DNA from: a virus
Taxonomy: Duplodnaviria; Heunggongvirae; Uroviricota; Caudoviricetes
Length of the DNA stretch: 46,969 nucleotides
Direction: 5' to 3' (one strand)
IMG/VR virus record: IMGVR_UViG_3300045988_152627
Shown here: positions 1 through 46,969 of the stretch, one piece after another
How the letters are laid out: every line of letters begins with the position of its first letter
Numbering within the stretch: the first letter of the stretch is position 1
Notes under the pieces: generated by a model
What the model saw: only the letters and a program-made list of their open reading frames with translations
Databases searched by the model: none
What the model was told of the DNA's origin: nothing
Position numbers and translations under genes: made by a program

Positions 1-119
1 AGTATTTCGAATCCAGGCAAGGATTGAGTCATTTTCAAAAGTAAGCCCACCGGACAAGGTATCGCCATTTTTTTGCACGGCGTTACCAGCCCTGTTTACC
101 GTTTCCTGCAAACCGAGGT
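1..119. repeat. Left arm of a perfect 119-bp inverted repeat (reverse complement of 46851..46969)
   Basis: Direct comparison of the first 119 bases with the reverse complement of the last 119 bases: identical, then diverging at 120. Confidence 0.9.
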
Positions 120-1476: not shown

Positions 1477-1506
1477 GCTTAATTCCTTGAATTAACAAAT
1501 TGCGAA

Positions 1507-2088
1507 TTAGCACTCGCCAATTAATCGTACATAGGACACAGGCTGACAAGCACCAACAATACCAACACCACCAGAAACATTGGCAGCTTGCGAAAATGTA
1601 AATAATGTTCTTGCCGACTTTGCGCTCTTGATACTTCTTAACGTATCTTCCAACATCTCTTTCGAAGGAACGGCACCATCAAAAGAGTTAATCGAAGCAA
1701 CAATTGAGGCTGTATATGGTTCGCCAGGTGGTGATGTTTCAAACCATTCTGTTATATTTACCTCTCCACCCAAGCTATTTACTACATCTTCAACCGCTGC
1801 CCTTGTACCCTTTATTCGCTTTGTTCGTATTATTGATTTAAAAACAGAACGCTTTAACGATACAGGCCAACTATCCCTCCATGTATCAGCATTCCATTGC
1901 CAAGCTAAATGATCGAGAACAACTGAGTCCAGGTTATCAACAACACTATATATTTCTGTCTTATATATTAAATTGTTAATTGCTTGTAGTTCATCATCGA
2001 TAGCTTTCGACATAGCTATCACGTTGGGATCTCTAGCTAAGTTAGGAGGTAAAACATCCAACAAGCTAACATTAAAGATATCAGCCAT
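1507..2088 (-). CDS. Baseplate/tail protein, P2 gpI-like (Mu gp48-like)
   Basis: 193 aa, immediately upstream of the tail fibre and downstream of the J-like gene, the conserved P2/Mu order. Confidence 0.55.
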   Translation of the reverse strand: MADIFNVSLLDVLPPNLARDPNVIAMSKAIDDELQAINNLIYKTEIYSVVDNLDSVVLDHLAWQWNADTWRDSWPVSLKRSVFKSIIRTKRIKGTRAAVEDVVNSLGGEVNITEWFETSPPGEPYTASIVASINSFDGAVPSKEMLEDTLRSIKSAKSARTLFTFSQAANVSGGVGIVGACQPVSYVRLIGEC

Positions 2089-3205
2089 CCTCTAACCCCG
2101 CATACTGGCAATTTATATTTCTCTCTCTGGCGACCTGCGTCTCTCCAACCACAGTAAATACAGGACTTGATATTTCTAATCTTTTAGCCCCAGCATTTTT
2201 TAAACGTTGAATAATTTCATCTGGATTTATATCTCTTCCCATAACCGAACGTTGCCATTGTTTATACTCATCAATAGCTTTCTCAACCTCACTTTGAATT
2301 AAAGTTGTTCTGTTTTTGTCCGATGAGTTAATCCAGTATTTAATTATTATATCGTATTCAATGCTCTCTGGTTTCTTAACAAGAACTTTATCTGTGAATG
2401 GTCGAATATTAGTTGCAGAGAGAACGCTATTTATCTGCTCTAATAGTTCATCAGAAGGTATATCTCCGTTCTCTAACAAAGAACGGATTTCTACAGTTCC
2501 GGGCGATGGTGTATATACATTCACATCTTTTATATTCTGATTGGCTGTTCTTGTCCAATATTTATAAGAATCCTCCGGCCCTGCTGTAGACAGTTTTTCC
2601 GGCGACAGTTTTATTCTTTCAGCATAATTATCATCTGACTCTGTATCAGCACCAGAATTAGATGTTGTTAGATTCCTTACGCTGGAAACATACGGCAACG
2701 GAGTCACCAACTCGTTTATTTGCCCAGGTAAAAAGCCATTCCCCGATAAGCCAGGTATAACAGCATATCCTGAGACTGTACCAACTGTTTTCCCAGCTGG
2801 TATTTCCAACAAAACATCTGTTTGGAAAATAACACTATTTCCAGTTGAAATTTGAGTGCCAGCAGGTATTGTATATATCCCCGATAATTTTGTTGACAGC
2901 TTAAACTCAAATGTAGTCAAGGCAGATTGAGCTTCCAGCCTAGGCGTATCCGTCAGATAGCCTATATGGTCGAGATATTCACCCCCACCATATGTAAGAA
3001 GGTTTTGTTTTGCAGAAAAATCGATAGCTTTTCTTTGCTGTATAATAATCTCACACAATGACAAGATGAATAATCTACGTGGATCAGCAGGTGCTAATGT
3101 TTCACCTGTTATACTCTCAAAAGCCCTGATTGAACGAGTTGTTATATCAGTCGGGTTAGAATCTGCGAAAGTAATATCTGGCAAACCACCGCGCGGCAAC
3201 GTCAT
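2081..3205 (-). CDS. Baseplate J-like protein
   Basis: 374 aa; size and position between the W-like and I-like genes; start overlaps the upstream gene. Confidence 0.65.
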   Translation of the reverse strand: MTLPRGGLPDITFADSNPTDITTRSIRAFESITGETLAPADPRRLFILSLCEIIIQQRKAIDFSAKQNLLTYGGGEYLDHIGYLTDTPRLEAQSALTTFEFKLSTKLSGIYTIPAGTQISTGNSVIFQTDVLLEIPAGKTVGTVSGYAVIPGLSGNGFLPGQINELVTPLPYVSSVRNLTTSNSGADTESDDNYAERIKLSPEKLSTAGPEDSYKYWTRTANQNIKDVNVYTPSPGTVEIRSLLENGDIPSDELLEQINSVLSATNIRPFTDKVLVKKPESIEYDIIIKYWINSSDKNRTTLIQSEVEKAIDEYKQWQRSVMGRDINPDEIIQRLKNAGAKRLEISSPVFTVVGETQVARERNINCQYAGLEDG

Positions 3206-3522
3206 TCTCTAACTCCTATCACAAGTTTTGGCCTAATAAAACCATCAGAAACGTCCGTTCTTTCAAAAGTAACAGAATGGATAATCGCTCTAGGCTCAAA
3301 CTCACTAATTTTTTGAATTATTTCTCGTGTTGCTGTAGCAATAAAAATTGGGCTGGGGCTATCAACAAGACTTGAATTAACTCCTAATTTTCTGGCATAT
3401 GGTACAGTGCCAATCTGAGTATTAATAATAGTAGAGACATTTTGCAAAACTTCTTCTACAACTGTTTTGGGCGACCAATCAATCGAGTAAGAAGGTGATG
3501 ATATGGTAAACGTATTATTCAT
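3202..3522 (-). CDS. Baseplate protein gpW/gp25-like
   Basis: 106 aa, translationally coupled to the J-like gene; conserved position. Confidence 0.55.
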   Translation of the reverse strand: MNNTFTISSPSYSIDWSPKTVVEEVLQNVSTIINTQIGTVPYARKLGVNSSLVDSPSPIFIATATREIIQKISEFEPRAIIHSVTFERTDVSDGFIRPKLVIGVRE

Positions 3523-3986
3523 AATAATTTACCTAACGCACTTCTAGTTTTTGACTCTATATTGCCAGCAATATCAACTAATGCTTCTTTCAGAGAGGTC
3601 TGCCCGACTTCCTGTAATTTAATGCCGACGATAATCACTCGTGGATTTCCAGTTGGACCGAAATAAGTCCATGACTCCTCTATATCTGTAATTATAAAAT
3701 TACCAAAATACTGAATACCAATTACAACAGGATTTACTTCCTGAATTGATTGCATTGTCCTAAGTAATGAAAGCGCAGCCAATGGAACAATGCCAAGTGT
3801 TGTATCCAACCGCATATTAAAACTAACTTCATCCAGATCTGGACCTATATCCTCCAGAACAGGTTTAAGCCCAATAACATCATGGCGCGCTACACGACGC
3901 TTTGACGTCCTTTTAAAATTGTTGAACGTATTCACCACTATTGATGAGGCAACAAAAGGCATTGTACCAAGCATACCCACAATCAT
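3519..3986 (-). CDS. Tail protein, possibly gpU-like
   Basis: 155 aa between the spike and W-like genes; weak resemblance to the P2 U family. Confidence 0.4.
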   Translation of the reverse strand: MIVGMLGTMPFVASSIVVNTFNNFKRTSKRRVARHDVIGLKPVLEDIGPDLDEVSFNMRLDTTLGIVPLAALSLLRTMQSIQEVNPVVIGIQYFGNFIITDIEESWTYFGPTGNPRVIIVGIKLQEVGQTSLKEALVDIAGNIESKTRSALGKLL

Positions 3987-4603
3987 GCCTGAGCCTCCGT
4001 TGTCGGAGCGTATTCCCCCTGAGCTGTGTGATGGTGGCCTTTAGATTTAATCCCATCAACATCTATATCACCACCAACAACCTTAACATCCCCAGAAATT
4101 GTAGCTGCAACACCTCCAGCAGAAGATCCTTTCATTCCACCTTTGAAGGTTAGTAATCCTTCAACTGTAGCATTTCCGGTAATGATGGTTTCTGGAGCAT
4201 CAATAGTTACGGTTCCTGTAGCCTTAACGGTTACATCTCCGACAGCATCAACAAGGAGTAAATTAGATTCTCTGTCTACCTCAATACGAGTTCCGTTATT
4301 AAATCTAATGACGCGTTTATTAACCGTATTAGATGGCGGCTTCTGTGTTTCATCATAAAAACTACCAAGAATAAAACCTTGTTGCGGCCCTGCGGGATGA
4401 AAGATACACAAAACTTGCTCACCAATATCTGGCATCCAGTAATCAGCATTCTTATCCGTATTTTTCACAATAACTGATAACTTTGCCGAAGTGACGTTAT
4501 CCTGATCATCGAAAGTAACTCTTGCTGTAACATCACCATCATCAATATCAGAAACAACGCCAACTCTTATAGTCTGACGTAATAATGTTTCTAAATCATT
4601 CAT
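3983..4603 (-). CDS. Baseplate spike protein, gpV-like
   Basis: 206 aa; OB-fold-like N-terminus and Gly-rich C-terminus ending in GHHHTAQGEY; conserved position. Confidence 0.6.
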   Translation of the reverse strand: MNDLETLLRQTIRVGVVSDIDDGDVTARVTFDDQDNVTSAKLSVIVKNTDKNADYWMPDIGEQVLCIFHPAGPQQGFILGSFYDETQKPPSNTVNKRVIRFNNGTRIEVDRESNLLLVDAVGDVTVKATGTVTIDAPETIITGNATVEGLLTFKGGMKGSSAGGVAATISGDVKVVGGDIDVDGIKSKGHHHTAQGEYAPTTEAQA

Positions 4604-4605
4604 AA

Positions 4606-5607
4606 TTAATACCCATTAATTACTCTTCGGACATCAATCGAGGTGGTATAACCACTAGCCCCAATTGAATGCACAGCTTTCGATATAAGATATTTTCCAG
4701 AAAATGAACCGAATCCGTCCAGATTTATAGTTACACCAGCTACCAATCTGGTGTCTCCAACCAATACTAAAGCCCCTGTATTTTGATATCTATTTTTAAG
4801 CCGCAAAGCAGCCTTTGCCTTACGTTTTGCTTCATCTAAATTAGCTACCAGTTTTCTTATCTTAAGATTCGACCCTTCTTCTACGGATGGATCTACCCAA
4901 GTATACGAAAGCGACTTTCTTTTTTTAGGTACGCGATATTTGCACGTGCAACTTTTATACAAATCTGTAGATTGTGTGCTAAAGCTATATCTGATTATCT
5001 CATCAATACCTAACGTAAGCGTAGCGATAGGATCTTTTTGCTCAAACATCTCTTGAGCAAATATTATTAATTGGCTATCAGTGACCTTTAACGACAACCC
5101 TTCATCCTGGCAAAGTCGATGGAGAAATTTTAAATCGCTTTCCTCCATTTGATCTTCACGCGCATAATATGGATTACTATCACCATCAATAAGAAACAAC
5201 AGTTCAAGGTTAGCTAATTTAGCTATAGAAGTTGCTATATCTTTAAGAGTTGTTTTTTCCCATGCATTACTTTTTAAATCACGTCTAATGCCTGATGAAA
5301 CAGGAACAGAAACAGCAGTTACCTCAACAACAGAAGGTGGTCCAGAGCAAGTTATGCCATCTACCTGGAATTTCCCGCACTCAAGGACGATTTGATTTAT
5401 AGGCTTAAAGCTCAAATCAATAAAATCACCCTTTTTAGGTGTCCAGTCTCCAGACCATTTCCCATCATCATTTTTTAATATAATAGAAATATCATCGACC
5501 TGACCATCTTCATTATCTGTATAAGACATTGACAAAACATCAGGTGACATATGAGCGGTAATATTTACATTCTGATATATAACATCAAAAAGCGTTTTAC
5601 GTAACAC
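4606..5607 (-). CDS. Tail protein gpD-like (late control D family)
   Basis: 333 aa, immediately downstream of the X-like and tape measure genes. Confidence 0.55.
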   Translation of the reverse strand: MLRKTLFDVIYQNVNITAHMSPDVLSMSYTDNEDGQVDDISIILKNDDGKWSGDWTPKKGDFIDLSFKPINQIVLECGKFQVDGITCSGPPSVVEVTAVSVPVSSGIRRDLKSNAWEKTTLKDIATSIAKLANLELLFLIDGDSNPYYAREDQMEESDLKFLHRLCQDEGLSLKVTDSQLIIFAQEMFEQKDPIATLTLGIDEIIRYSFSTQSTDLYKSCTCKYRVPKKRKSLSYTWVDPSVEEGSNLKIRKLVANLDEAKRKAKAALRLKNRYQNTGALVLVGDTRLVAGVTINLDGFGSFSGKYLISKAVHSIGASGYTTSIDVRRVINGY

Positions 5608-5815
5608 TGTTGCGTCTCCACGGAGGCAAATTGTTTACTGATATTGGCATAACCGGAGCATCAGGAACTTTAAGAATAATTCCCGCAGAAAAAAGCACCG
5701 TAAAGCGGTGCTCAGTATTAGCATCAATAAGAAGATAAGACAGGTACTCATTACCATACAACTTTAACGCGATACTATCCCATGAGTCCCCTTGAACCGT
5801 TCTATAATCATCCAA
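5597..5815 (-). CDS. Tail protein X-like (LysM-like)
   Basis: 72 aa with a LysM-like pattern (YRTVQGDSWDSIALKLYG); sits between tape measure and gpD-like. Confidence 0.55.
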   Translation of the reverse strand: MDDYRTVQGDSWDSIALKLYGNEYLSYLLIDANTEHRFTVLFSAGIILKVPDAPVMPISVNNLPPWRRNSVT

Positions 5816-8600
5816 AACTTAATCTCCGTTGTTGGAACATATGAGCACTCAATTTCTTCTCAAAATCAGAATATCCCGCATCTAATGCTCTTTTAGCTGC
5901 CGCCTCAGTTTCCTTTGGTGAACCAGCCGGAAGATTGATTACAGGTGAATAGGTTATTCCACCAGTCACAGCGTTAACGTTCTGGCGAGTTCCAGAAGTC
6001 CCGGCGGCAGATATCCCGTGAGGTGATAAATTTGATTGCCCGAACTTGGTTGCTATTGCATTCTGTAAGCTGTTATTCCTGCTAACACCTGATGCCAGAG
6101 TAGTCATTATTGCCCCCCCTGACTTTGTTAGCTGTGTGAATGGACCTTTTTTCGCGTCAGAGAACGGTAAATACTCACGTACAGAAGAAAAAACGCCTTT
6201 CACTTCATTAATTAAAGCATTTGCTTTTGATTTTATCCCAGTGATTAACGTCTCAATTATTTTTGCACCTGACTCACTCCAGTTTATTCCAGATAAATAA
6301 GCCGTTACAGATTGGAATGCTCTTATAAAGAGTCCAACTGGTGAAAAACGCATAAAAACAGACACCAGTGTATCTATGATTTTCTTTCCTGTTTCACTCC
6401 AGTTAATGCCAGAAAGGTAATTTGTTGTAAGTTTAAATGCTTTAATTAAGAACGGAAGCGGAGACATCCATTTAAAAGCACTAATTAATGTACTGTAAAT
6501 TCTTACTCCTGCCGAACTCCAGTTTATGTTGGAAAGATAATCCCATGCTTTACCAAACATAGATATAATCCATCCATTGAGATCAAAGTTTAAGATAAAG
6601 TTTTTTATAGCTTCAAACGATTTAACTGTATATTCCTTAACAGAAGGCCAAACTCTGACAGCATAATCTCTGATCTTATCCCAGTTCTGATAGAGCAATA
6701 TTCCTGCGGCAACCAGCGCAGATATAGCCATCTGAATCCACCCGAAGGGTGTTAGCTTTGTCGCTACAGATAAAGCCAGCATAGCTACCCTACACGCTAT
6801 AACCACACTTTTCATGGTTAGAAACGCACCTGCCGCCATCACAATCTGAGACACAAAATTGGGGTTGTTAGCTACAAATTCACTAATTTTTGTAATCAGC
6901 GGAACCAAAACACTAAGCGCGGCATTCAAAGCAGGTTGCAAGGCCTGACCAAAACTTAATGATGCATTGCTAGCCTGAATACGTAATTGTTTCAATCGCT
7001 CCGCATTGTCTTTCGTTATGTTGGTAAAATCGCGGTCAATAACAGCACTTCCAGCACCAAGAGATGTTGCTTTGATTCTCTGGTATTCCTTCCAGTTTTG
7101 AATCATCGGACGAACAAAGTTCTGAACCTGCATATCGCCAAATAGCTCACCAAGTAACTTCTGATCTCCGTTCTTAGTCATTTTCATGACAGAATGCATT
7201 GCAGCTTCGAATGGATTCTTCCCTTTTTTCTGCGCTGTTGTGACAATTTTATATAAATCTACACCGAAATTTTTCTTTGCTTTTTTTAGTGTTTCAGGGG
7301 AAAGTATTTTCGCCAAAAAGTTGTTCATGTTATTAGCAGCCTCATCCGAAGTTGCAGCACCTTTGCGAGCTATCTGCAAAGCTGCCCCCATCGTCGCGGC
7401 GGCTTCTTTACCTCCCATTTTTAATGCCTGGAACTGGGCACCAAGCACAGGAAGATTTTTGGCCATATCTTTAAATTCAAAGTTTCCCTCTTTCCCTGCC
7501 TGAACCAGAATCCCCATTGCAGACTTCATTTGAGATGGATCAATCTTCAATGAGTCACTTAATGTAAATGATGCTTTCGAGACATCGAGGATATCAGAGC
7601 CAGTAGCTGTAGCTGTTCGCCCAATAGTTAGTAGATTCGCCTGAGCCTCTTTATAATCCTGCCCAGCAGCGACAAGAAAACCCTGAGCGGCCTGAATATC
7701 AGATGCAAACTGGTTGGTGGCCGTTCCGGTAACAAGCATCGCCTGCCCCATCGCCTGAACTTCTTCCGGCTTCATATCTGCCGTAAGACCAATCATTTTG
7801 TTTTCACGATTGAAATTTGCTGCATTGTTAGCAGCAGCAAATGCACCAGCCGCTACAGCACCAGTTTGTAATCCTGACCTTACAAGTTGACTCTTTGCCT
7901 CACCAAGATGCTCTCGCTTCAATTCACGCTGCCTTTCCAACGCGCGGTTTAACTCCTCCTGAGCACGTTTTACTGCAAGAACATTTTTCCGTGCTTCAGC
8001 CAACGCATTTTTATAGCTGTTAATTTTATCAATACGTTGTTTTTCTAATGCCCGGTTAAGTTCCTCCTGCTGTTTTTTCACTTGCTGAACATTTGCTCTG
8101 GCTAAAGCCAAAGCCGTTCTGTAGCGGTTAACCTGCTCAACGCTACGGGCCTGAGCCTCACGATTACGATCAATGCTTGCTTTAAGCTCTTTCTCTCTTG
8201 AGGCTAAAGCTCTGGCAGATGTATCAGCTCCCTGATACGCAGACTTTAAAGCGGCCAGTTCTTCACGCTGAGAACGTAGTGATGCTCGTAAATTTGATGA
8301 ATGTGTTTTTGCCTTCTCAAAGTCACGAAGCATCGCTCTGGTTGGATTGGCCGTGTTTTTTATTTGCTTCTGTAACTCTTCAACGCGAGCAGCAGCTTTA
8401 TGATATTCGAGGGCAGTCTGTCCAACCTTTACTTTTACAGATTGTAGCTTTTGAATTTCCCCATGTTCTTTCGTTAATCCAGCAAGCTCTGCATTTAATT
8501 TAGCAACAGCCTGATTAGCTGTAGTAAAACTTTTGGGGAGAGAGGCGGCAACTTTGCCGCCAATTTCAAAAGCCAGCTTAAAGTTCTTATTGCTGGCCAT
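5808..8600 (-). CDS. Tail tape measure protein
   Basis: 930 aa; N-terminal coiled-coil repeats, central hydrophobic segment; follows the frameshifted chaperone pair. Confidence 0.85.
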   Translation of the reverse strand: MASNKNFKLAFEIGGKVAASLPKSFTTANQAVAKLNAELAGLTKEHGEIQKLQSVKVKVGQTALEYHKAAARVEELQKQIKNTANPTRAMLRDFEKAKTHSSNLRASLRSQREELAALKSAYQGADTSARALASREKELKASIDRNREAQARSVEQVNRYRTALALARANVQQVKKQQEELNRALEKQRIDKINSYKNALAEARKNVLAVKRAQEELNRALERQRELKREHLGEAKSQLVRSGLQTGAVAAGAFAAANNAANFNRENKMIGLTADMKPEEVQAMGQAMLVTGTATNQFASDIQAAQGFLVAAGQDYKEAQANLLTIGRTATATGSDILDVSKASFTLSDSLKIDPSQMKSAMGILVQAGKEGNFEFKDMAKNLPVLGAQFQALKMGGKEAAATMGAALQIARKGAATSDEAANNMNNFLAKILSPETLKKAKKNFGVDLYKIVTTAQKKGKNPFEAAMHSVMKMTKNGDQKLLGELFGDMQVQNFVRPMIQNWKEYQRIKATSLGAGSAVIDRDFTNITKDNAERLKQLRIQASNASLSFGQALQPALNAALSVLVPLITKISEFVANNPNFVSQIVMAAGAFLTMKSVVIACRVAMLALSVATKLTPFGWIQMAISALVAAGILLYQNWDKIRDYAVRVWPSVKEYTVKSFEAIKNFILNFDLNGWIISMFGKAWDYLSNINWSSAGVRIYSTLISAFKWMSPLPFLIKAFKLTTNYLSGINWSETGKKIIDTLVSVFMRFSPVGLFIRAFQSVTAYLSGINWSESGAKIIETLITGIKSKANALINEVKGVFSSVREYLPFSDAKKGPFTQLTKSGGAIMTTLASGVSRNNSLQNAIATKFGQSNLSPHGISAAGTSGTRQNVNAVTGGITYSPVINLPAGSPKETEAAAKRALDAGYSDFEKKLSAHMFQQRRLSFG

Positions 8601-25081: not shown

Positions 25082-25200
25082 CGGGTTATCTCCGGTTTAA
25101 CCAGGGCGGGTATCGCTCGGTTTCGGGTATAACATTAGGAAATTTTTTCCCACCTGTAAAGTACTTTTTATATAATTATATAATTATATAATTCTATGAC
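25082..25200 (-). promoter_or_regulatory. Promoter-leader cassette copy 1 (TTTACA-N17-TAATGT, about 50-nt leader, RBS GGAGAT)
   Basis: Minus-strand -35 at 25155..25160 and -10 at 25132..25137; near-identical to 32154..32275 and 42784..42900; (TATATAAT)x3 upstream of the -35. Confidence 0.6.
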
Positions 25201-25781
25201 ACTTGCCAGAGAGCATCATGCAACTGGATACCTCCATTGCACTGGTTGCCCCAGCCATGCCAGCCATCAGGTAAATCACCGCGAGCAAACAACTCAATAC
25301 GAGGAACATCGCCTAACAGCTTTACCAGCTTGTCACGGACCACATCAGGCTTCCGAGAATGCTCCAGACGAGGCGATGTAAACGACTGAATAATCCCCGC
25401 ATCAAGGCGGGTTGGCAGTTTGCCTTTTACCGCAAACAAGCAATCTTCACTGTTTGCACGAGTCATATGCCCCATCCCCATCACCAGCTTATCTGGTTGT
25501 CGGCTACCACATTTGTTCCATGTGAAGCCCTTCATGGTCATAAGCCTGAATCCCCATGCTTTCACCACCAGCAACGCTTCTTCTGGCTGAGTCGGAACCC
25601 ACCACATGGCCAACAAACACGATTCAGGATTAGCAAGCTGCCAGACAGGAATACGAGCAATCTCCTCAGCTTTCATCGTTGGATACTTAAAACCAGCGCC
25701 ACGATTCCCATCCTTACACTTGTCTTTGTATTCCCAGGGGGGATCTGCATAAATCAGATTAAACAATGCAATTGCCTCCAT
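25194..25781 (-). CDS. DNA N6-adenine methyltransferase, MT-A70 family
   Basis: 195 aa with the N-terminal DPPW motif (LIYADPPWEY). Confidence 0.75.
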   Translation of the reverse strand: MEAIALFNLIYADPPWEYKDKCKDGNRGAGFKYPTMKAEEIARIPVWQLANPESCLLAMWWVPTQPEEALLVVKAWGFRLMTMKGFTWNKCGSRQPDKLVMGMGHMTRANSEDCLFAVKGKLPTRLDAGIIQSFTSPRLEHSRKPDVVRDKLVKLLGDVPRIELFARGDLPDGWHGWGNQCNGGIQLHDALWQVS

Positions 25782-26083: not shown

Positions 26084-26159
26084 TTGGTGGCCCCTACCGG
26101 ATTTGAACCGATGACCGTGCGATTATGAGTCGCCTGCTCTAACCACTGAGCTAAGGGGC
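26084..26159 (-). tRNA. tRNA with CAU anticodon, most similar to tRNA-Ile2 (ileX-type); elongator Met not excluded
   Basis: 76-nt cloverleaf GGCCCCTTAGCTCAGTGGTTAGAGCAGGCGACTCATAATCGCACGGTCATCGGTTCAAATCCGGTAGGGGCCACCA: 7-bp acceptor stem, D and T arms, CTCATAA anticodon loop, encoded CCA. Confidence 0.85.
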
Positions 26160-26329
26160 CATATTTGATCTGTTTGTCTGGTGTGGCGCCGCGCACGAAA
26201 ATCCCAGCCAATAAATTCAGGATTTTTGGGCGCGGCGGCATATCAGACAAACATGGTTGATGCGTGCGCCCATGAGAAAAGCGCATAGAATGTTGTAACT
26301 ATATATTTATATAATTATAGAAATATATA

Positions 26330-26539
26330 TTACTTTCGGCAGTTGATTTCCCATGCCCTGTTATGAGCCAGAATATCTTTCTTTGTCTGGCGGTCCATAA
26401 CATCGATGTCGTGATCAGTCAGGTAGATGGGCTTTACCCAATCACAGGCGGTATCAACCACCACCGGGACGCTTCCACGACTCCCGCAGCTCGCGATCAA
26501 CATCGTCATCAGCCATATGGTTAACACTCTGCTGTACAT
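26330..26539 (-). CDS. o-spanin (Rz1-like lipoprotein)
   Basis: 69 aa with signal peptide and lipobox LIASC; partly nested in the 3' end of the Rz-like gene in another frame. Confidence 0.55.
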   Translation of the reverse strand: MYSRVLTIWLMTMLIASCGSRGSVPVVVDTACDWVKPIYLTDHDIDVMDRQTKKDILAHNRAWEINCRK

Positions 26540-30730: not shown

Positions 30731-31029
30731 GCCACAGCCCCTCTCAACGGCTTAACTTTGGCTAATAAGGTGTTAAACAACATGGAGTTAGGATTCATGC
30801 CAAATGGCAATTCCGGTTTAGCGGAGTAGTACAGGCAACCATTTATTTTCCTGGTTGTTATCTGTCCTTCGGCAACCATGCTTCTCAGTCTGCAACGCAT
30901 AGAGTTCTGCGACACACCAATGTGCTCCGCGATTACGTCCACTTTTGAACATGGGTGATCGGTCAGGAAATTAATCACATCTTGGGGGTTAATAATTTTG
31001 CGTTTCATTGTCGAGGCGTCCTTATACAT
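30727..31029 (-). CDS. Hypothetical DNA-binding protein (winged-helix-like)
   Basis: 100 aa; central segment IAEHIGVSQNSMRCRLRSMVAEGQI resembles a winged HTH. Confidence 0.4.
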   Translation of the reverse strand: MYKDASTMKRKIINPQDVINFLTDHPCSKVDVIAEHIGVSQNSMRCRLRSMVAEGQITTRKINGCLYYSAKPELPFGMNPNSMLFNTLLAKVKPLRGAVA

Positions 31030-31085
31030 TTATATAAATATATAATTCTATATACGGCGGGAGACATCCCGCCGTAGGCTTACTG

Positions 31086-32153: not shown

Positions 32154-32275
32154 CAGATTTCTCCGGTTTAACCAGGGCGGGTATCGCTCGGTTTCGGTTA
32201 TAACCTTAGGAAATTTTTTCCCACCTGTAAAGCACTTTTTATATAAATCTATAATTATATATTTATAGATTTTCG
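32154..32275 (-). promoter_or_regulatory. Promoter-leader cassette copy 2, directly downstream of the Q-like gene
   Basis: Same sequence as copies 1 and 3 with a few substitutions (TAAGGT at the -10 position); TATAAATCTATAATTATATA motif upstream. Confidence 0.55.
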
Positions 32276-35971: not shown

Positions 35972-36106
35972 CTGAAAGCGGGCTAACGCCCGCTTATATG
36001 ATTATAGATTTATATAATTATATAAAACGCTTTTCATCCGCCAAAAAGTTGGTTATGCTTACCTCGTTCTATAAATATAGATTTATAGAATTATATAACC
36101 AAACAC

Positions 36107-36775: not shown

Positions 36776-36818
36776 TATATAATTATAGTTTTATAGATTT
36801 ATATAAGATGGGATACAC

Positions 36819-37279: not shown

Positions 37280-37295
37280 ATTCAACCATAAAAAA

Positions 37296-37311
37296 GGCCC
37301 CCGAAGGGGCC
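37296..37311. terminator. Bidirectional terminator hairpin GGCCCCCGAAGGGGCC
   Basis: Perfect GC-rich hairpin flanked by an A-run upstream and T-rich sequence on the opposite strand. Confidence 0.55.
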
Positions 37312-37877
37312 TAATCGCTACTTGCTGCTAATGTTTATCGTCACATTCAGAGCGTTATCAGTAATCTTCCAACCCTCCCCATGTGGCGTAAACAAAGCCC
37401 CAGTAACAACGATAAAAATACACATACAGTATTTTTTCATTGTATGGCCCTTACAGGCCGTTTCACGGCATCCCCACCGACGAAAACAACGCGAGAGCAA
37501 GCACGGCTGCTTGTGCTTGCATGTACGGCAACAGGAAATCCTCCCCTAAAGTCGGTGCCCGGGTGCGAATCGGCGGGAAGGTCCACAGGTATTTTACGAT
37601 TATTTTAAGATTAGTAATAGGAAATAAATTAAACGAAAAAACCAGTTTATTTTCACAAAATCAGTAACCTACCCACAATCTGTGAGTTTGCAGACACAAC
37701 AAGAACCACAATTTTTTGAAGCATAATAGTGGACTATTATTACCTTTTGGGTAAAATCAACTTGCTGCTTGTGCTTGCGTGGTTGTTTATACAACAACGT
37801 AATGCTGAAAGGACCGCGAATCCGATCAGCACGAAAGAACCGTCCTCAATAGGGCGGTTTTTTTGTTTCTTCACTCA

Positions 37878-38569: not shown

Positions 38570-38864
38570 TGTCTCTGTTAAAATCCCGCCGTATTGACAT
38601 GAATGCGCCATTGGTGGACACTTTCCGAGCCGTAGCAAAATCTACGGTCGGGATTAGCCTCCTGAATAACACGATGGCGCATACCGCGTTAGCGGTTTTT
38701 TTATGCGTAGAGCACTGTTACGCCCAAATTATGGTGGGTCGTACAGGGGCGGAGAAATCCGCGCCGGTTCGTCATTGTGTCCGGTAAGGCTAACCCTGTA
38801 CGGCTCACCACCATTTGATTAGCCTCGAATGGCGGTGATAGTTCCATATATTGGAGATATCACA

Positions 38865-39056
38865 ATGACAAACTTACCCCATGACTATTACGTCAACCTC
38901 GTAAAGATCCTTCTCAAGAAAGCCTCATACGCCGATAAATTCCGCCTGGCTGAAATAATCGAGCGCGAAGCTATGCGCATCGCCAGCAACGATAACGCTG
39001 TTTCTGACGCAAAAATCTCCCTCGTAACCAAAGTAGTTATGGGAGGTGCAAAATGA
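38865..39056 (+). CDS. Hypothetical small protein, coupled to the antirepressor
   Basis: 63 aa from ATG 38865 (RBS GGAGAT); stop overlaps the antirepressor start. Confidence 0.35.
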   Translation: MTNLPHDYYVNLVKILLKKASYADKFRLAEIIEREAMRIASNDNAVSDAKISLVTKVVMGGAK

Positions 39057-40195
39057 AAACGCTTCCGACCGTTAACACCCTACAGCCTATCCTGCATAAC
39101 CAGATCCCCGTTATCACCACGGAGCTGCTTGCCAAACTATATGGCTGTAGCGTCGAATGTCTTCACAGAAATCACCACCGTAATAAGTCCCGGTTTACAG
39201 AAGGAAAACATTTCATAGTTGTAAAAGGTACAGATCTCCAAAGTTTGAAAATCTCTTTAAGAGATTTTCAAACCATCGCGAATAACGTTAGAAAGCTCAT
39301 CCTCTGGACCGAACGCGGGGCTGCACGTCACGCTAAAATGCTCGAAACCGATCAGGCATGGGATGTATTCGAACGGCTGGAAGACTGCTACTTCAACCAG
39401 AACGCGCAAACGGCCGCGACCGTAACCGTCTCACCAAACAATGCTCGTGAGGTTGTCGATACGCTCAACGCTAAACCAATGTATTACGTTAAGGTGTGCA
39501 ACAACGAGCCACTCACAACCTCAGCCGATGTTGCCCAAGCATTCAGCACCACAAACAATTCCATCGTTATGGCCATCGATGCGTTACGTATTCCTCGCAC
39601 AGCTGCGGCGCGTCACTTCTTTAAAGAACAACGACCGCTGGAAGGAAGCGACCGCGAAATAACAATCTATCGCATGACAAAAGACGGATTTACCTTGCTC
39701 ATGGAAAGTATCGACGGTCCAGGCGTGAAGGATATCAAGCTGGCCTACATTGAAGCCTTTAACGCTATCAGCAGCGTGTTAAAGGCAGAATACGAGCGAA
39801 TGCTATACAACCGACTGTATCAGGAAACAAAGATTATCCGAACGGCAACAGAACATCATCGGCTATTAACGGAACCAAACTACCGCAAGACACTAATCAA
39901 AGAATTTGACAAGGCGACGGAGAAAACTAAAGCGGCACTAAATCTACCAACAATGACTAAAGATGATGTGATATCAGCCTTACTTCTTGATCTGCTCAGA
40001 AACGCCAGAGCACTTATCAGTTTTGACGAAAACCTGAATCCTCAGCTCAAGCTACTACCACCGACAGGCAAAGTAGTCGACCAAGCAGATCACAACAGCA
40101 TACTCAGCGTACTGGATGCAAACCTGCCAGCCAGGACACTACAGGAGCTGATAAAAATATCTGCGGATAAACTGGCCGCAGGTGCAAAACCATAA
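39053..40195 (+). CDS. Phage antirepressor (KilA-N/ORF6N-like N-terminus plus Rha-like domain)
   Basis: 380 aa; N-terminal ITTELLAKLYGCS...KHFIVVKGTDL and central TSADVAQAFSTTNNSIVMAIDAL resembling the Rha motif. Confidence 0.65.
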   Translation: MKTLPTVNTLQPILHNQIPVITTELLAKLYGCSVECLHRNHHRNKSRFTEGKHFIVVKGTDLQSLKISLRDFQTIANNVRKLILWTERGAARHAKMLETDQAWDVFERLEDCYFNQNAQTAATVTVSPNNAREVVDTLNAKPMYYVKVCNNEPLTTSADVAQAFSTTNNSIVMAIDALRIPRTAAARHFFKEQRPLEGSDREITIYRMTKDGFTLLMESIDGPGVKDIKLAYIEAFNAISSVLKAEYERMLYNRLYQETKIIRTATEHHRLLTEPNYRKTLIKEFDKATEKTKAALNLPTMTKDDVISALLLDLLRNARALISFDENLNPQLKLLPPTGKVVDQADHNSILSVLDANLPARTLQELIKISADKLAAGAKP

Positions 40196-42783: not shown

Positions 42784-42900
42784 CGGGTTATCTCCGGTTT
42801 AACCAGGGCGGGTATCGCTCGGTTTCGGGTATAACATTAGGAAATTTTTTCCCACCTGTAAAGCACTTTTATATAAATCTATAATTATATAATTCTATGA
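42784..42900 (-). promoter_or_regulatory. Promoter-leader cassette copy 3 (TTTACA-N17-TAATGT)
   Basis: Minus-strand -35 at 42857..42862 and -10 at 42834..42839; about 88 bp identical to copy 1 from the ATG up to the -35. Confidence 0.6.
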
Positions 42901-42945
42901 GCACAAAAAAGCCCCTTTGCAACAGGGGCTTATCATTCGTTCTGA

Positions 42946-43598: not shown

Positions 43599-43836
43599 TC
43601 CTATAACCTGTAGTTTATATTACTAACTATATAACCTGTGGGTTATAATTTCAAGAAAAACGGGGCTATTTAACATAATGGACGTTATCGGCACCACCGG
43701 ATCACCGTTCATTGTCGGATCTAAAAAATCCGCTCAAAAGATCATGTTTTCCTGGGCGTTTTCCACCGTTTTTTATGTTGCTTATTTGTTAATGAAATCT
43801 CGTTTTCAGTTTCGCCTCATTTTCGACGCGAAAGCC

Positions 43837-45054: not shown

Positions 45055-45903
45055 TTAATGCTGGAGTGATTTCCAGGTCTTTCTTAGCCTGTTATAACGC
45101 TGCTCAACGAGGGATCGTAAATATGCAAGGTCAGCTCCAGGATACATGCCATCAGCAAATTCCTGGCTAACCTCTCTAGTGATTTGATGACGAAGTTCGG
45201 CCTCTCCCTTTTCCCGAACAAGACGCGCAGCTCTCTCCGCTGCTTTCTGTTTTGCCTTTATCTCTCTAGCCGTCTTCCTCTGACGCCATACATTCTCCAT
45301 CTGCTCCTGAATAACAATACGCTTATAATCAGCCTCCGTTATCGCTTTTTTAAGCCGTTCGCTATTCTTCGCATTGAAGTAATTAAGTTTCTGGCTAACC
45401 GCACGTCTCCATGCTTGTTCAGTAATACCAACGGTTTCCAGAAGTTGATCACGAATCTCTATTTTCGCTGGCCAATACTGTTTATTCACCCGATCCCAGC
45501 GACGTTCATAATCAATAAAACCTAACGCTTTCAGTTGCGACAACGCCCTTGTACAGCGCGTTATAGACTTGTTCCCAGCTTCGGATACGGTAGACAGGCC
45601 GCAAAAATCAGCCAACGCCTCAGCACTGGCCAGAACCCGCTTAGAAATGATGTTTACATGGTGCAAAATCGCAGCAATCACAGCATTAATCGCCCGACGA
45701 CGATGCTCGTTTATCCGGCGTTTCCGCTCTGACGGTTGATTAACGTAGAACGCAACCTCACACGTAAGATCACGACCATTAATGCGCTGTAAAGCATCAG
45801 ATAACACCAGCGGCAGCTTGTGCGTATGGTGCTTTGGAGGCTGGAACTCCGGCGACAAATTACAAACGTAAGCTGAACGTAGAGACTGCATTGGTCTATC
45901 CAT
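45055..45903 (-). CDS. repA: Plasmid replication initiator RepA, IncFII RepA1 family
   Basis: Segment RRAINAVIAAILHH...GNKSITRCTRALSQLKALGFIDYE parallels RepA1 RRAIDALLQGL...GKLSITRATRALTFLSELGLITYQ; start taken at the internal ATG 45903 (about 282 aa); the longer ORF to 46041 overlaps the antisense RNA. Confidence 0.8.
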   Translation of the reverse strand: MDRPMQSLRSAYVCNLSPEFQPPKHHTHKLPLVLSDALQRINGRDLTCEVAFYVNQPSERKRRINEHRRRAINAVIAAILHHVNIISKRVLASAEALADFCGLSTVSEAGNKSITRCTRALSQLKALGFIDYERRWDRVNKQYWPAKIEIRDQLLETVGITEQAWRRAVSQKLNYFNAKNSERLKKAITEADYKRIVIQEQMENVWRQRKTAREIKAKQKAAERAARLVREKGEAELRHQITREVSQEFADGMYPGADLAYLRSLVEQRYNRLRKTWKSLQH

Positions 45904-45947
45904 ATGTTCGCTCTTGCGTCCACGGAAAACCAACGTATAATGGGAGT

Positions 45948-46036
45948 TGTCGAGGCGCCCATGGATTGTTGTTGGTTTTTGTTTCTTTCCGTGGATGTCG
46001 CAAGAAGCCCGCAGATTTATCTGCGGGCTTTTTGTT
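45948..46036 (+). ncRNA. CopA-like antisense RNA candidate (countertranscript to the repA leader)
   Basis: Plus-strand promoter TTGCGT-N16-TATAAT (45914..45941), stem-loop AAAACCAAC/GTTGGTTTT, and terminator hairpin AGCCCGCAGA-TTTA-TCTGCGGGCT plus T-run (46006..46036). Confidence 0.5.
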
Positions 46037-46077
46037 TCCATATCTGGTCACTTTCCAACCAGACACCCACAATCATA

Positions 46078-46092: not shown

Positions 46093-46222
46093 TTTAAGAG
46101 AACTCTACCACAACACTTTCGGTCATGCACGAAGTCTCTCACTGATCGAACGATAATCCACCAGTAAAAGGATCTAAATTGGATCTCGTTTTGCGAGCAT
46201 CATACTACTGGCCTAACTCCAG

Positions 46223-46777
46223 TCAATGATTCCCAGCCGGAAACCTGCGGTAAAGCGTGGATAAGGTAACATCGAAGATAATCGCTATCCGCTTACGTGA
46301 AACACCATTCGCAATAAGCCTTCCGATCTGTTCCCATTGCTCTGGTGCCAGTTTTGAGCGACGTCCTCCTATCCTGCCGTTAGCCCTTGCCACCGCCAAT
46401 CCTGCACGCGTTCTTTCAATCATATTTTCCCGCTCCATCTCTGCGACTGCACTCAGCATCGTGTAGGCAAAGCGGCCAATTGAAGTGCTGATTTTTATCC
46501 CTTCCGTAATTGAAATAAACTCAATGTCGTTTGATAAAAAATGGTTAAGTAAATCAACAAGATGAATCAGAGAACGCCCCATTCGGTCCAGCTTCCAGAC
46601 AATAACCGTATCGCCCGGTCGTAACACCTTCAGTAGCTTATCAAGTCCTGGTCGTTTTGATTTAGCACCGGATATTTTATCTTCAAAAATCCGGTCACAT
46701 CCTGAACTCCTGAGCGCCTCCAGTTGTAATTCCAAATTCTGGTCAAAAGTTGACACCCTCGCATAACCATATTGCAT
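46223..46777 (-). CDS. Serine-recombinase DNA invertase, Gin/Cin/Pin/Hin family
   Basis: 184 aa starting MQYGYARVSTFDQNLELQ (catalytic Ser motif); C-terminal HTH GGRRSKLAPEQWEQIGRLIANGVSRKRIAIIFDVTLSTLYRR closely parallels Gin. Confidence 0.9.
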   Translation of the reverse strand: MQYGYARVSTFDQNLELQLEALRSSGCDRIFEDKISGAKSKRPGLDKLLKVLRPGDTVIVWKLDRMGRSLIHLVDLLNHFLSNDIEFISITEGIKISTSIGRFAYTMLSAVAEMERENMIERTRAGLAVARANGRIGGRRSKLAPEQWEQIGRLIANGVSRKRIAIIFDVTLSTLYRRFPAGNH

Positions 46778-46841
46778 ACTTTCTAAACCGCGATTGTTGC
46801 TAAAAGCGGGAAAAAATATCGTTCAGACGACACAGAGGCAA

Positions 46842-46867
46842 TTCGCAAAAACCTCGGTTTGCAGGAA
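46842..46867. other. gix/cix-like invertase crossover site, right copy
   Basis: TTCGCAAAAACC-TC-GGTTTGCAGGAA; inverted relative to 103..128, sharing one half-site and core; 65 bp upstream of the invertase start. Confidence 0.6.
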
Positions 46868-46969
46868 ACGGTAAACAGGGCTGGTAACGCCGTGCAAAAA
46901 AATGGCGATACCTTGTCCGGTGGGCTTACTTTTGAAAATGACTCAATCCTTGCCTGGATTCGAAATACT
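46851..46969 (+). CDS. Start-codon-less alternative tail-fibre C-terminal segment (partial, runs off window end); also the right arm of the inverted repeat
   Basis: Plus-strand frame encodes LGLQETVNRAGNAVQKNGDTLSGGLTFENDSILAWIRNT, identical to the minus-strand tail-fibre frame at 1..119; no start codon or RBS. Confidence 0.65.

What the first reader, a model, noticed from the sequence alone, without database searches (positions are those of the whole stretch)
46223..46969. Gin-family invertase next to the right crossover site and a promoterless tail-fibre segment
A 184-aa serine invertase is encoded 65 bp from the right gix-like site (46842..46867). Immediately beyond the site the plus strand carries an in-frame tail-fibre segment with no start codon, the expected state of the silent alternative that is expressed only after inversion. 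The invertase sits beside the plasmid replicon, so it might also resolve multimers.
Basis: partly seen in the sequence, partly recalled or inferred. Interest (0 to 1): 0.7.

Follow-up and report, generated by a model that had tools for sequence, protein, structure and literature searches.

The report
Tail-fibre inversion switch of a phage-plasmid
This is an ordinary Mu/P1-type DNA invertase with its crossover site, which flips a segment to swap the tail-fibre tip of a common 48-kb E. coli phage-plasmid; it is intact, but nothing suggests that it also resolves plasmid multimers.

Summary
A 184-aa serine recombinase is encoded at 46223..46777 (-). A 26-bp gix-like site lies 64 nt upstream at 46842..46867. 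An open, start-less tail-fibre frame runs from there off the window end.

The window is a whole contig of a circular "p-p47"-family phage-plasmid, cut open at its invertible segment. Its last 119 nt are a perfect inverted copy of its first 119 nt. There the constant part of the tail-fibre gene (1455..1, -) crosses the partner site (103..128). The interior of the segment is missing.

The invertase aligns without gaps to Mu Gin (E 1e-61), with all catalytic residues and the Fis-contact residues intact. It belongs to a divergent sub-branch (54-60% identity to Gin, Cin and Pin) with unusual residues at regulatory positions.

Two assemblies of E. coli ATCC 25922 carry the sibling plasmid, whose invertase is 99% identical, with the 3.07-kb segment in opposite orientations. 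The exchange maps to the site core, so the switch works in this family.

The multimer-resolution idea is not supported. There are only two sites, in inverted orientation, and a conserved XerCD dif/psi-like site at 43668..43695 offers the conventional route.

This is a known kind of system and of low interest.

The parts
46223..46777 (-). DNA invertase gene (184 aa), a small serine recombinase of the Gin/Cin/Pin/Hin type, in a divergent sub-branch
   Evidence: ORF. Pfam Resolvase 3.6e-44 plus HTH_7 2.9e-13. Gap-free alignment of residues 2-181 to Mu Gin structure 3UJ3, E 1.2e-61. Identity is 54-55% to Gin, 55-56% to Cin and 60% to Pin. S9, R7, R65, R68, Q150, R153 and L154 are present.
46688..46759 (-). 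Predicted recombinational (Fis) enhancer inside the invertase gene, gene nt 19-90. Fis-like G-N13-C cores lie at gene nt 22-36 (46742..46756) and 71-85 (46693..46707).
   Evidence: The P1 record annotates the cin enhancer at nt 19-90 of cin. Mu gin has G-N13-C cores at the same two gene positions, and P1 cin has one at 71-85. The cores are conserved in 19 subfamily genes. Synonymous diversity is lowest in this part of the gene, 0.33 against 0.40-0.55 elsewhere. This part is inferred, not shown.
46842..46867 (+). Invertase-proximal crossover site (gix-like), TTCGCAAAAACC-TC-GGTTTGCAGGAA, with the central dinucleotide at 46854..46855
   Evidence: Unique in the window. It matches the Mu gix sequence TTATCCAAAACCTCGGTTTACAGGAA at 22 of 26 positions. 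In ATCC 25922 the exchange point maps between the outer half-site and 4 nt inside the core.
103..128 (-). Partner crossover site inside the tail-fibre gene, TTATCGAATACC-TC-GGTTTGCAGGAA, inverted relative to the right site
   Evidence: It matches Mu gix at 23 of 26 positions. The reading frame across the core (E-Y-L-G-L-Q) is the same as at the right site (K-N-L-G-L-Q), so exchange keeps the frame.
1..1455 (-). Tail-fibre gene S. The constant N-terminal part (1455..~116) is followed by the first 38 codons of a variable part, and the gene runs off the window.
   Evidence: Translation. Pfam Phage_fiber_2, three stretches, 2.9e-59. It lies downstream of tail protein I and baseplate J, as in the relatives.
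46851..46969 (+). Right arm of the perfect 119-nt inverted repeat (left arm 1..119). It comprises the inner half-site plus the first 34 codons of a Mu-Sv-type cassette. The start-less frame is open from 46787.
   Evidence: It is 96% identical to the start of Mu Sv.
43668..43695 (-). XerC/XerD dif/psi-like site GGTGCCGATAA-CGTCCA-TTATGTTAAAT, a candidate multimer-resolution site
   Evidence: It has 2 mismatches to the dif arms, while the best of 20 shuffles had 4. It lies in an intergenic region. It is exactly conserved in all 18 fetched family loci that cover the region.
45055..46041 (-). IncFII-type repA, the plasmid replicon next to the invertase
   Evidence: Pfam IncFII_repA 1.3e-43. NCBIfam RepA_IncFII_LM scores 231.5 bits against a cut-off of 70.

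Best explanation
The region is one end of a Mu-G / P1-C-type invertible tail-fibre segment on a circular phage-plasmid of about 48-50 kb, of the 'p-p47' family with an IncFII-like RepA. The invertase binds as dimers to two 26-bp sites in inverted orientation. One site lies 64 nt upstream of its own gene. The other lies inside the tail-fibre gene S. The two bound dimers are probably brought together with a Fis-bound enhancer in the first ~90 nt of the invertase gene. Strands are then exchanged at the central TC dinucleotide. Inversion joins the constant N-terminal 447 codons of S in frame to one of two alternative C-terminal cassettes, each followed by its own tail-fibre assembly gene, and so switches receptor specificity.

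Shown here: an intact enzyme, two matching inverted sites, frame compatibility, the full architecture in relatives, and both orientations in one strain carrying a 99%-identical system.

Inferred: Fis/enhancer dependence, host-range switching, and activity of this particular copy.

The interior of the segment is absent because the contig ends on entering the repeat. The perfect terminal repeat is exactly 119 nt, a common k-mer size. That implies inverted repeats of at least 119 nt in this element, longer than the 25-76 nt seen in the relatives examined here.
For: Enzyme: searches show a gap-free alignment to Gin. The catalytic residues S9, R7, R65 and R68 and the Fis-contact residues Q150, R153 and L154 (Hin Q151, R154, L155; PMC3798978) are invariant. 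Sites. Frame. Architecture in 20 or more relatives. Inversion in vivo in a sibling: ATCC 25922 assemblies NZ_CP009073.1 and NZ_CP158444.1 have collinear flanks and a central 3071 nt inverted at 99.97% identity. A G/A marker 4 nt inside the core moves with the segment while the outer half-sites stay. Each orientation gives a full-length tail-fibre ORF followed by a different assembly gene. Enhancer. Contig logic. Other draft contigs also stop at this site (L020; L025, L027 and L031).
Against: The interior of the segment is not in the window, so the two cassettes of this element are unseen. None of the roughly 25 complete relatives examined site by site, and none of the p-p47-sized records among 91 plasmid matches, carries the same cassette start at both ends, so the inferred repeat of 119 nt or more is unusual. 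The subfamily has Asp where all 15 invertases aligned by McLean et al. have Lys (Hin K47). It has Ala-Tyr-Thr-Met-Leu where Hin has F105-F106-H107-V108-M109. In Hin, F105A abolishes inversion and F106Y leaves only a trace (PMC4513852). Fis dependence therefore cannot simply be assumed. The inversion seen in ATCC 25922 could have been catalysed in trans by another invertase of that strain.
Confidence: 0.88

Rival explanations
1. The invertase has a second role as the plasmid's multimer resolvase, recombining directly repeated copies of the crossover site in a dimer.
For: It is the only recombinase annotated on a complete relative and it sits next to repA. The subfamily differs from Gin, Cin and Hin at positions where Hin substitutions can relax Fis/enhancer control.
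Against: The monomer has only two sites, in inverted orientation, and no res-like accessory sites were seen. The Fis-contact residues that mark enhancer-dependent invertases are conserved. In that class the invertasome aligns the sites for inversion, whereas resolvases use a different synaptosome (PMC3798978). A dif/psi-like XerCD site is exactly conserved in all 18 family loci covering that region. Adjacency to repA is simply the family's fixed gene order.
Confidence: 0.04
2. In this particular element the switch is frozen or degenerate. The segment may be deleted, rearranged or carrying two equivalent cassettes, so that inversion no longer changes the fibre.
For: Both window ends carry the identical cassette start, which was not seen in any closed relative examined. 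Some relatives have a damaged silent cassette, for example a Tn3-family insertion in CP098182.1 (L015).
Against: The invertase ORF is intact, and a protein of identical sequence is indexed in 820 blocks of the public collection. Both sites are intact, with identical inner halves and central dinucleotide. P1 functions with long inverted repeats flanking its C segment (established knowledge; the P1 record is).
Confidence: 0.06
3. The terminal inverted repeat is an assembly artefact of a population holding both orientations of a segment with short (about 25 nt) repeats, so the window itself would record active inversion.
For: Relatives have short repeats and different cassettes at the two ends. 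The repeat is exactly 119 nt, a k-mer-like length.
Against: This is my own reasoning about de Bruijn graphs. If both orientations and two different cassettes were present, both ends of the large contig would branch right after the ~25 shared bases. The contig would stop there and would not run 119 nt into the same cassette on both sides. Choosing a branch by coverage cannot favour the same cassette at both ends.
Confidence: 0.08

Closest known systems
Phage Mu Gin / G segment (gix sites, S-U / S'-U')
   Same: The invertase is transcribed away from the segment, with the crossover site just upstream of its start (about 54 nt in Mu, 64 nt here). The second site lies inside the tail-fibre gene S. 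The sites match Mu gix at 22-23 of 26 positions. The cassette start is 96% identical to Mu Sv. Relatives carry a segment of about 3 kb with U/U' assembly genes.
   Different: The invertase is only about 54-55% identical to Gin, whereas Gin and Cin are 77% identical. It has D46 in place of Lys and A104-Y105-T106-M107-L108 in place of F-F-H-V-M. The carrier is a plasmid prophage with IncFII-type repA, not a transposable phage. The inverted repeat here is at least 119 nt; from memory, Mu's is about 34 bp.
Phage P1 Cin / C segment
   Same: It is a plasmid prophage. The crossover sites lie at the outer ends of longer inverted repeats. The enhancer is annotated in the 5' part of the invertase gene, nt 19-90. 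The window also carries a P1/P7-type C4 antisense RNA immunity element.
   Different: cin points toward the segment and cixL overlaps its 3' end, whereas here the orientation is Mu-like. P1 resolves multimers with Cre/lox (established knowledge), whereas here there is a XerCD-type site. Identity to Cin is 55-56%.
e14 Pin / P segment of E. coli K-12
   Same: Pin is the closest of the three named invertases compared here (60% identity). The layout is the same: stf/tfa cassettes followed by the invertase.
   Different: e14 is a defective chromosomal prophage. Pin belongs to the Gin/Cin clade, with the GLKK...GRFFFHVMGAL motifs.
Salmonella Hin / H segment
   Same: It is a Fis/enhancer-dependent small serine invertase, and the DNA-binding-domain helix-1 residues that contact Fis are conserved.
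   Different: Hin flips a promoter, not a tail-fibre cassette, and hin lies inside its segment (established knowledge). Full-length Hin was not aligned here; only its DNA-binding domain matched (1HCR, E 3e-6).

Membership tests
Fis/enhancer-dependent DNA invertases (Gin/Cin/Pin/Hin) | Small serine recombinase with an N-terminal catalytic domain carrying the nucleophilic Ser and a C-terminal helix-turn-helix | tested here: met
   Pfam Resolvase plus HTH_7. Gap-free alignment to Gin 3UJ3/4M6F. S9, R7, R65 and R68 are invariant.
Fis/enhancer-dependent DNA invertases (Gin/Cin/Pin/Hin) | Two 26-bp imperfectly palindromic crossover sites in inverted orientation with an identical central dinucleotide | tested here: met
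   Sites at 46842..46867 (+) and 103..128 (-). Both read ACC-TC-GGTTTGCAGGAA going inward, and they match Mu gix at 22-23 of 26 positions.
Fis/enhancer-dependent DNA invertases (Gin/Cin/Pin/Hin) | Residues of DNA-binding-domain helix 1 that contact Fis (Hin Q151, R154, L155), conserved in invertases but not in resolvases | tested here: met
   Q150, R153 and L154 are invariant in alignment A1. The criterion comes from PMC3798978.
Fis/enhancer-dependent DNA invertases (Gin/Cin/Pin/Hin) | [quoted passage not shown] | tested here: not met
   The equivalent residues are D46, K47 and K50. Asp replaces the 'always Lys' residue in the window and in all intact subfamily genes from IMG/VR (criterion). 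This is a conserved property of the 15 sequences aligned in that paper rather than a formal definition, so I still file the protein in the family, as a divergent sub-branch.
Fis/enhancer-dependent DNA invertases (Gin/Cin/Pin/Hin) | Recombinational enhancer with two Fis sites in cis, lying in the 5' part of the invertase gene in Gin, Cin and Hin | tested here: inconclusive
   G-N13-C cores lie at gene nt 22-36 and 71-85, as in Mu gin, and within the span annotated as enhancer in P1 cin. Synonymous variation is reduced there. However, the same bases encode the conserved catalytic motif. Fis binding cannot be tested with these tools.
Fis/enhancer-dependent DNA invertases (Gin/Cin/Pin/Hin) | Inversion of the flanked segment actually occurs | tested here: met
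   Met for a sibling element only. The two ATCC 25922 assemblies differ by inversion of 3071 nt bounded by the sites, and that invertase is 179/181 identical to the window's. It was not tested for this copy, and catalysis in trans by another invertase is not excluded.
Resolvase-type multimer resolution system (Tn3/gamma-delta res, Sin, ParA-res) | Directly repeated res sites, each with a crossover site plus accessory recombinase-binding subsites | tested here: not met
   Only two recombinase sites were found, in inverted orientation. The only extra match to the inner half-site is at chance level.
XerCD-dependent plasmid resolution sites (cer/psi/dif type) | 11-bp XerC arm, 6-8-bp central region and 11-bp XerD arm | tested here: met
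   GGTGCCGATAA-CGTCCA-TTATGTTAAAT at 43668..43695. The XerD arm matches dif 11/11 and the XerC arm 9/11, while the best of 20 shuffles had 4 mismatches. The site is exactly conserved in 18 family loci. The dif consensus arms were taken from memory. Accessory PepA/ArgR/ArcA sequences and function were not tested.
p-p47 phage-plasmid family (bioRxiv 10.64898/2026.08.19.745698) | E. coli element of about 47-54 kb with a shared backbone: a phage module covering ~75% of the element plus a RepA replicon. The paper names CP032086.1 as a member. | tested here: met
   The window end is 97.8% identical to NZ_CP032086.1 and 97-99% identical to about 26 plasmids of 46-52 kb.

The most novel reading that the evidence does not exclude
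The sub-branch of invertases to which this enzyme belongs has Asp at the invariant helix-B Lys and Ala-Tyr-Thr-Met-Leu in place of the Phe105-Phe106-His107-Val108-Met109 'switch' of Hin. It may have a re-wired activation mechanism, with altered or relaxed dependence on Fis and the enhancer. It could then act on sites in other configurations, for example directly repeated sites in plasmid dimers. That would give a natural counterpart to the laboratory hyperactive mutants.
Probability: 0.07. Interest if true: 0.6.

Novelty: new member of a known kind. Interest (0 to 1): 0.22.

Why it matters
There are three modest reasons.

(1) The p-p47 phage-plasmids are widespread in E. coli. A protein identical to this invertase is indexed in 820 blocks of the public collection. 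A 2026 preprint shows that these elements spread blaTEM-1 by lysogenisation, but it never mentions the invertase or the switch. The orientation of the tail-fibre segment is therefore an uncontrolled variable in host-range and transfer measurements for this family.

(2) The switch breaks short-read assemblies. This contig carries a 119-nt terminal inverted repeat that could be mistaken for genuine inverted terminal repeats or for evidence of a complete genome.

(3) The enzyme is a natural variant at residues that have been studied intensively in Hin, which could interest people working on the control of serine recombinases.

Tried and rejected
- Exact-match scans for the window's two junctions found nothing in IMG/VR or in GTDB genomes. 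The source assembly and the missing segment could not be recovered. The window itself is not in PLSDB, INPHARED or the complete E. coli genomes; the best match is 98.4-98.7% identical.
- I first guessed the element belonged to the pSLy3 group. The papers show that pSLy3 belongs to the SSU5 supergroup, and the p-p47 preprint finds its family unrelated to all ten established phage-plasmid types, so I rejected this.
- A literature search for the Yersinia phages vB_YpM_39/41/44 returned nothing.
- The promoter scan found no sigma-70-like site upstream of the invertase, and none facing the silent cassette.
- Rfam gave no match in the stretch between the invertase gene and repA.
- NCBIfam has no specific model for this invertase; all hits fall far below their cut-offs.
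- I looked for a closed relative with the same cassette start at both ends of the segment. None was found among the p-p47-sized plasmid matches or the relatives examined site by site.
- I considered mixed orientations as the cause of the terminal repeat and judged it unlikely on graph logic. It cannot be excluded without reads.
- Codon-level conservation of the putative enhancer is suggestive but confounded by the catalytic motif encoded by the same bases.

Full report
**What is in the sequence**

The ORF at 46223..46777 on the minus strand encodes 184 aa starting with ATG. The 26-mer TTCGCAAAAACCTCGGTTTGCAGGAA lies at 46842..46867, 64 nt upstream of that start codon. It is unique in the window and never arose in 100 shuffles.

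On the plus strand the frame is open from a TAA at 46784..46786 through the site to the last base of the window. It encodes ...IRKNLGLQETVNRAGNAVQKNGDTLSGGLTFENDSILAWIRNT. It has no ATG, and the promoter scan found no sigma-70-like site facing into it.

The neighbouring gene at 45055..46041 (-) is an IncFII-type RepA. It scores 1.3e-43 against Pfam IncFII_repA and 231.5 bits against NCBIfam RepA_IncFII_LM, whose cut-off is 70.

**The window is a circular element opened at its invertible segment**

The first 119 nt of the window are a perfect reverse complement of the last 119 nt (46851..46969).

Read on the minus strand, the left end holds a tail-fibre gene. It starts at 1455, just downstream of tail protein I (1507..2088) and baseplate J (2081..3205). 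It contains three Phage_fiber_2 repeats (Pfam 2.9e-59). It runs through a second site, TTATCGAATACCTCGGTTTGCAGGAA at 128..103, and then off the window.

The two sites are inverted relative to each other. They share the inner half and the central TC, and they differ at four positions of the outer half. The reading frame across the core is the same at both: E-Y-L-G-L-Q at the left and K-N-L-G-L-Q at the right. Exchange at the centre therefore keeps the constant part of S in frame with whichever cassette lies next to the invertase.

Both window ends point into a segment whose interior is missing.

**Relatives show the full architecture**

The last 2 kb of the window match 145 plasmid records. About 26 records of 46-52 kb match at 97-99% identity over at least 80% of the query. 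Most are from E. coli, with some from E. albertii, E. fergusonii and Klebsiella. Three 49-kb "Yersinia phages" (vB_YpM_39, 41 and 44) also match.

In every complete relative examined the order is repA - invertase - site - start-less tail-fibre C-terminal cassette - assembly gene - assembly gene (opposite strand) - full tail-fibre gene - tail protein I - baseplate J. Exactly two crossover sites lie about 3.05 kb apart. This is the Mu layout Sc - gix - Sv - U - U' - Sv' - gix - gin.

The family carries several cassette types: a Mu-S type, a Mu-S' type and at least two others.

The element belongs to the "p-p47 family" of phage-plasmids named in a 2026 preprint. That paper lists CP032086.1, one of the matches here, and shows that these elements transfer as phages. 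It does not contain the words invertase, inversion or tail fibre.

**The enzyme**

The protein has Pfam Resolvase (3.6e-44) and HTH_7 (2.9e-13) domains. It aligns without a gap, residues 2-181, to the crystal-structure sequence of Mu Gin (3UJ3, E 1.2e-61). The next best matches are gamma-delta and Tn3 resolvases, at about 1e-30.

The nucleophile S9 and residues R7, R65 and R68 are present. So is the rest of the conserved core: 83 of the window protein's 184 residues are invariant across an alignment with ATCC 25922, three subfamily members, Gin, Cin and Pin.

Q150, R153 and L154 are invariant. McLean et al. report the corresponding Hin residues Q151, R154 and L155 as the Fis-contact patch, conserved in enhancer-dependent invertases but not in resolvases (PMC3798978).

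The enzyme is nonetheless not a close Gin homologue. Identity is 54-55% to Gin, 55-56% to Cin and 60% to Pin, whereas Gin and Cin are 77% identical.

Two local differences stand out.
- Asp replaces the helix-B lysine that is "always a lysine" in the 15 invertases aligned by McLean et al. (Hin K47).
- The start of helix E reads F-A-Y-T-M-L instead of F-F-F-H-V-M. That places Ala, Tyr, Thr and Leu at the positions of Hin F105, F106, H107 and M109.

In Hin, those helix-E positions hold the dimer inactive until Fis and the enhancer act. F105A gives no inversion, F106Y gives a trace, and H107Y is the classic Fis-independent mutant (PMC4513852).

The Asp is present in every intact subfamily gene recovered from IMG/VR (77-99% identity). 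The helix-E motif is present in all five subfamily sequences aligned. These are lineage traits, not damage.

**Does it work?**

E. coli ATCC 25922 carries a 48,488-bp sibling plasmid whose invertase is 179/181 identical to the window's.

Two independent assemblies of that strain, NZ_CP009073.1 and NZ_CP158444.1, are collinear in the flanks. They differ by inversion of 3071 nt at 99.97% identity.
- In one assembly the tail-fibre gene ends with cassette 1 and is followed by assembly gene WP_000972173.1.
- In the other it ends with cassette 2 and is followed by WP_000972103.1.
- In each case PGAP marks the other cassette as an N-terminally truncated pseudogene.

A G/A difference four bases inside the core travels with the segment, while the outer half-sites stay in place. 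This maps the exchange to the site centre, as expected for a serine invertase.

A second caveat is that another invertase of that strain could have acted in trans.

**Enhancer**

The P1 record annotates the Cin enhancer at nt 19-90 of cin. In the window's gene, G-N13-C cores typical of Fis sites lie at nt 22-36 (GTGTCAACTTTTGAC) and 71-85 (GTTCAGGATGTGACC). Mu gin has such cores at the same positions, and P1 cin has one at 71-85.

Across 19 distinct subfamily genes the cores are conserved. Codons 7-30 have the lowest synonymous diversity of the gene, 0.33 against 0.40-0.55 further downstream. Several four- or six-fold degenerate codons there are invariant.

Against Mu gin, codon identity at shared residues is 8 of 14 in this stretch and 26 of 83 in the rest of the gene downstream of it.

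The same bases encode the catalytic motif, and 5' ends of genes are often constrained. I therefore rate the enhancer as likely but unproven.

**The multimer-resolution idea**

The window has only two recombinase sites, in inverted orientation, and nothing resembling res accessory sites. Enhancer-dependent invertases assemble an invertasome that aligns sites for inversion, whereas resolvases use a different synaptosome (PMC3798978).

A scan for XerC/XerD sites found GGTGCCGATAA-CGTCCA-TTATGTTAAAT at 43668..43695 (-). It lies in an intergenic region 2.5 kb from the invertase and has 2 mismatches to the dif arms, while the best of 20 shuffles had 4. The 28-mer is exactly conserved in all 18 fetched family loci that cover the region.

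A complete relative has ParA, several ParB-like proteins and a RelE/ParE toxin-antitoxin pair, but no other recombinase. Host XerCD acting at this site is the conventional and better-supported route to monomers. The adjacency of the invertase to repA is simply the family's fixed gene order.

**The 119-nt terminal repeat**

The relatives examined have inverted repeats of only 25-76 nt and different cassette starts at the two ends of the segment. Among 91 plasmid records matching the 119-mer, none of p-p47 size has two copies. The exact 119-mer occurs once each in two E. fergusonii plasmids, next to the constant part of S. The 120-mer that includes the preceding base is exact in only 1 of 659 matching records of the E. 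coli genome collection.

A length of exactly 119 nt is what a de Bruijn assembler at k = 119 leaves when a contig enters a repeat from both sides. By my own reasoning, a mixture of orientations with two different cassettes would make the contig stop after the ~25 shared bases. I therefore infer that this element has inverted repeats of at least 119 nt, as P1 has long ones. The 102 nt "beyond the site" would then be common to both alternative fibres.

It follows that the window says nothing about which cassette is silent or whether this copy is flipping. This inference needs the reads.

Other draft contigs in public data also end at or just past this site (L020; L025, L027 and L031).

**Verdict**

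This is a textbook Gin/Cin/Pin-type tail-fibre switch on a common E. coli phage-plasmid. It is intact, and the switch is demonstrably active in the family. It is a new member of a known kind. The only mildly unusual points are the divergent regulatory residues of the invertase sub-branch and the longer repeats inferred for this copy.

Noticed in passing
window 43668..43695 (-): A dif/psi-like XerC/XerD site, GGTGCCGATAA-CGTCCA-TTATGTTAAAT, lies in an intergenic region between the toxin-antitoxin genes and the genes upstream of repA. It is exactly conserved in 18 family loci.
   Followed up: yes
window 1..119 and 46851..46969: A perfect 119-nt terminal inverted repeat, of k-mer size. The contig is the whole plasmid minus the interior of the invertible segment. 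Such ends could be mistaken for true inverted terminal repeats or for a sign of genome completeness.
   Followed up: yes
window 38629..38815 (+) and ORF 39053..40195 (+): Rfam isrK (65.7 bits) and C4 antisense RNA (70.8 bits) lie directly upstream of a 380-aa ORF whose homologues in relatives carry ORF6N and pRha domains. This looks like a P1/P7-type c4-ant immunity module.
   Followed up: no
window 37290..37586 (-): A full-length match to the ryfA RNA family (143 bits against a gathering score of 80) on a phage-plasmid.
   Followed up: no
window 26085..26160 (-): A single tRNA gene with a CAT anticodon. ARAGORN calls it tRNA-Met, while PGAP calls the tRNA gene at the corresponding place in a relative tRNA-Ile.
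   Followed up: no
window 25089..25204, 26292..26343, 31023..31058, 32160..32275, 35995..36103, 36776..36811, 42791..42905: Twelve copies of an AT-only motif (TATATAATTATATAA...) lie in intergenic regions. Three of them sit inside a repeat of about 108 nt (80-94% identical). They may be operator or promoter elements. The copy at 42.8 kb may explain why many draft assemblies carry the invertase on 2-5-kb contigs.
   Followed up: no
window 46199..46226 (-): The only good sigma-70-like match in the last kilobase, TTGACT-16-TATGAT (10 of 12), overlaps the stop codon of the invertase and points toward repA. Transcription of the invertase gene could read into the replication-control region.
   Followed up: no
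invertase residues 46 and 104-108 (window 46454..46468 and 46640..46642): The subfamily has Asp46 and A-Y-T-M-L at positions where Gin, Cin, Pin and Hin have Lys and F-F-H-V-M. These are positions where Hin point mutants lose activity or become Fis-independent.
   Followed up: partly
L039 (IMGVR_UViG_2579778982_000025) 1290..5052: A G-like segment is flanked on one side by a Mu-type gin and on the other by the window-type invertase, with no tail-fibre constant part next to either site. It is either a chimeric assembly of two co-resident elements sharing the segment or a real hybrid.
   Followed up: no
L015 (CP098182.1) 1297..5919: A Tn3-family transposon (resolvase plus DDE transposase) is inserted inside the silent tail-fibre cassette next to the invertase. 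After inversion it would interrupt the expressed fibre.
   Followed up: no
NZ_CP032086.1 (L005): One ATCC 25922 assembly gives this plasmid as a 94,204-bp linear record with two copies of the invertase region. It is either a dimer-like assembly or a real multimer. The preprint lists it as a size outlier.
   Followed up: no
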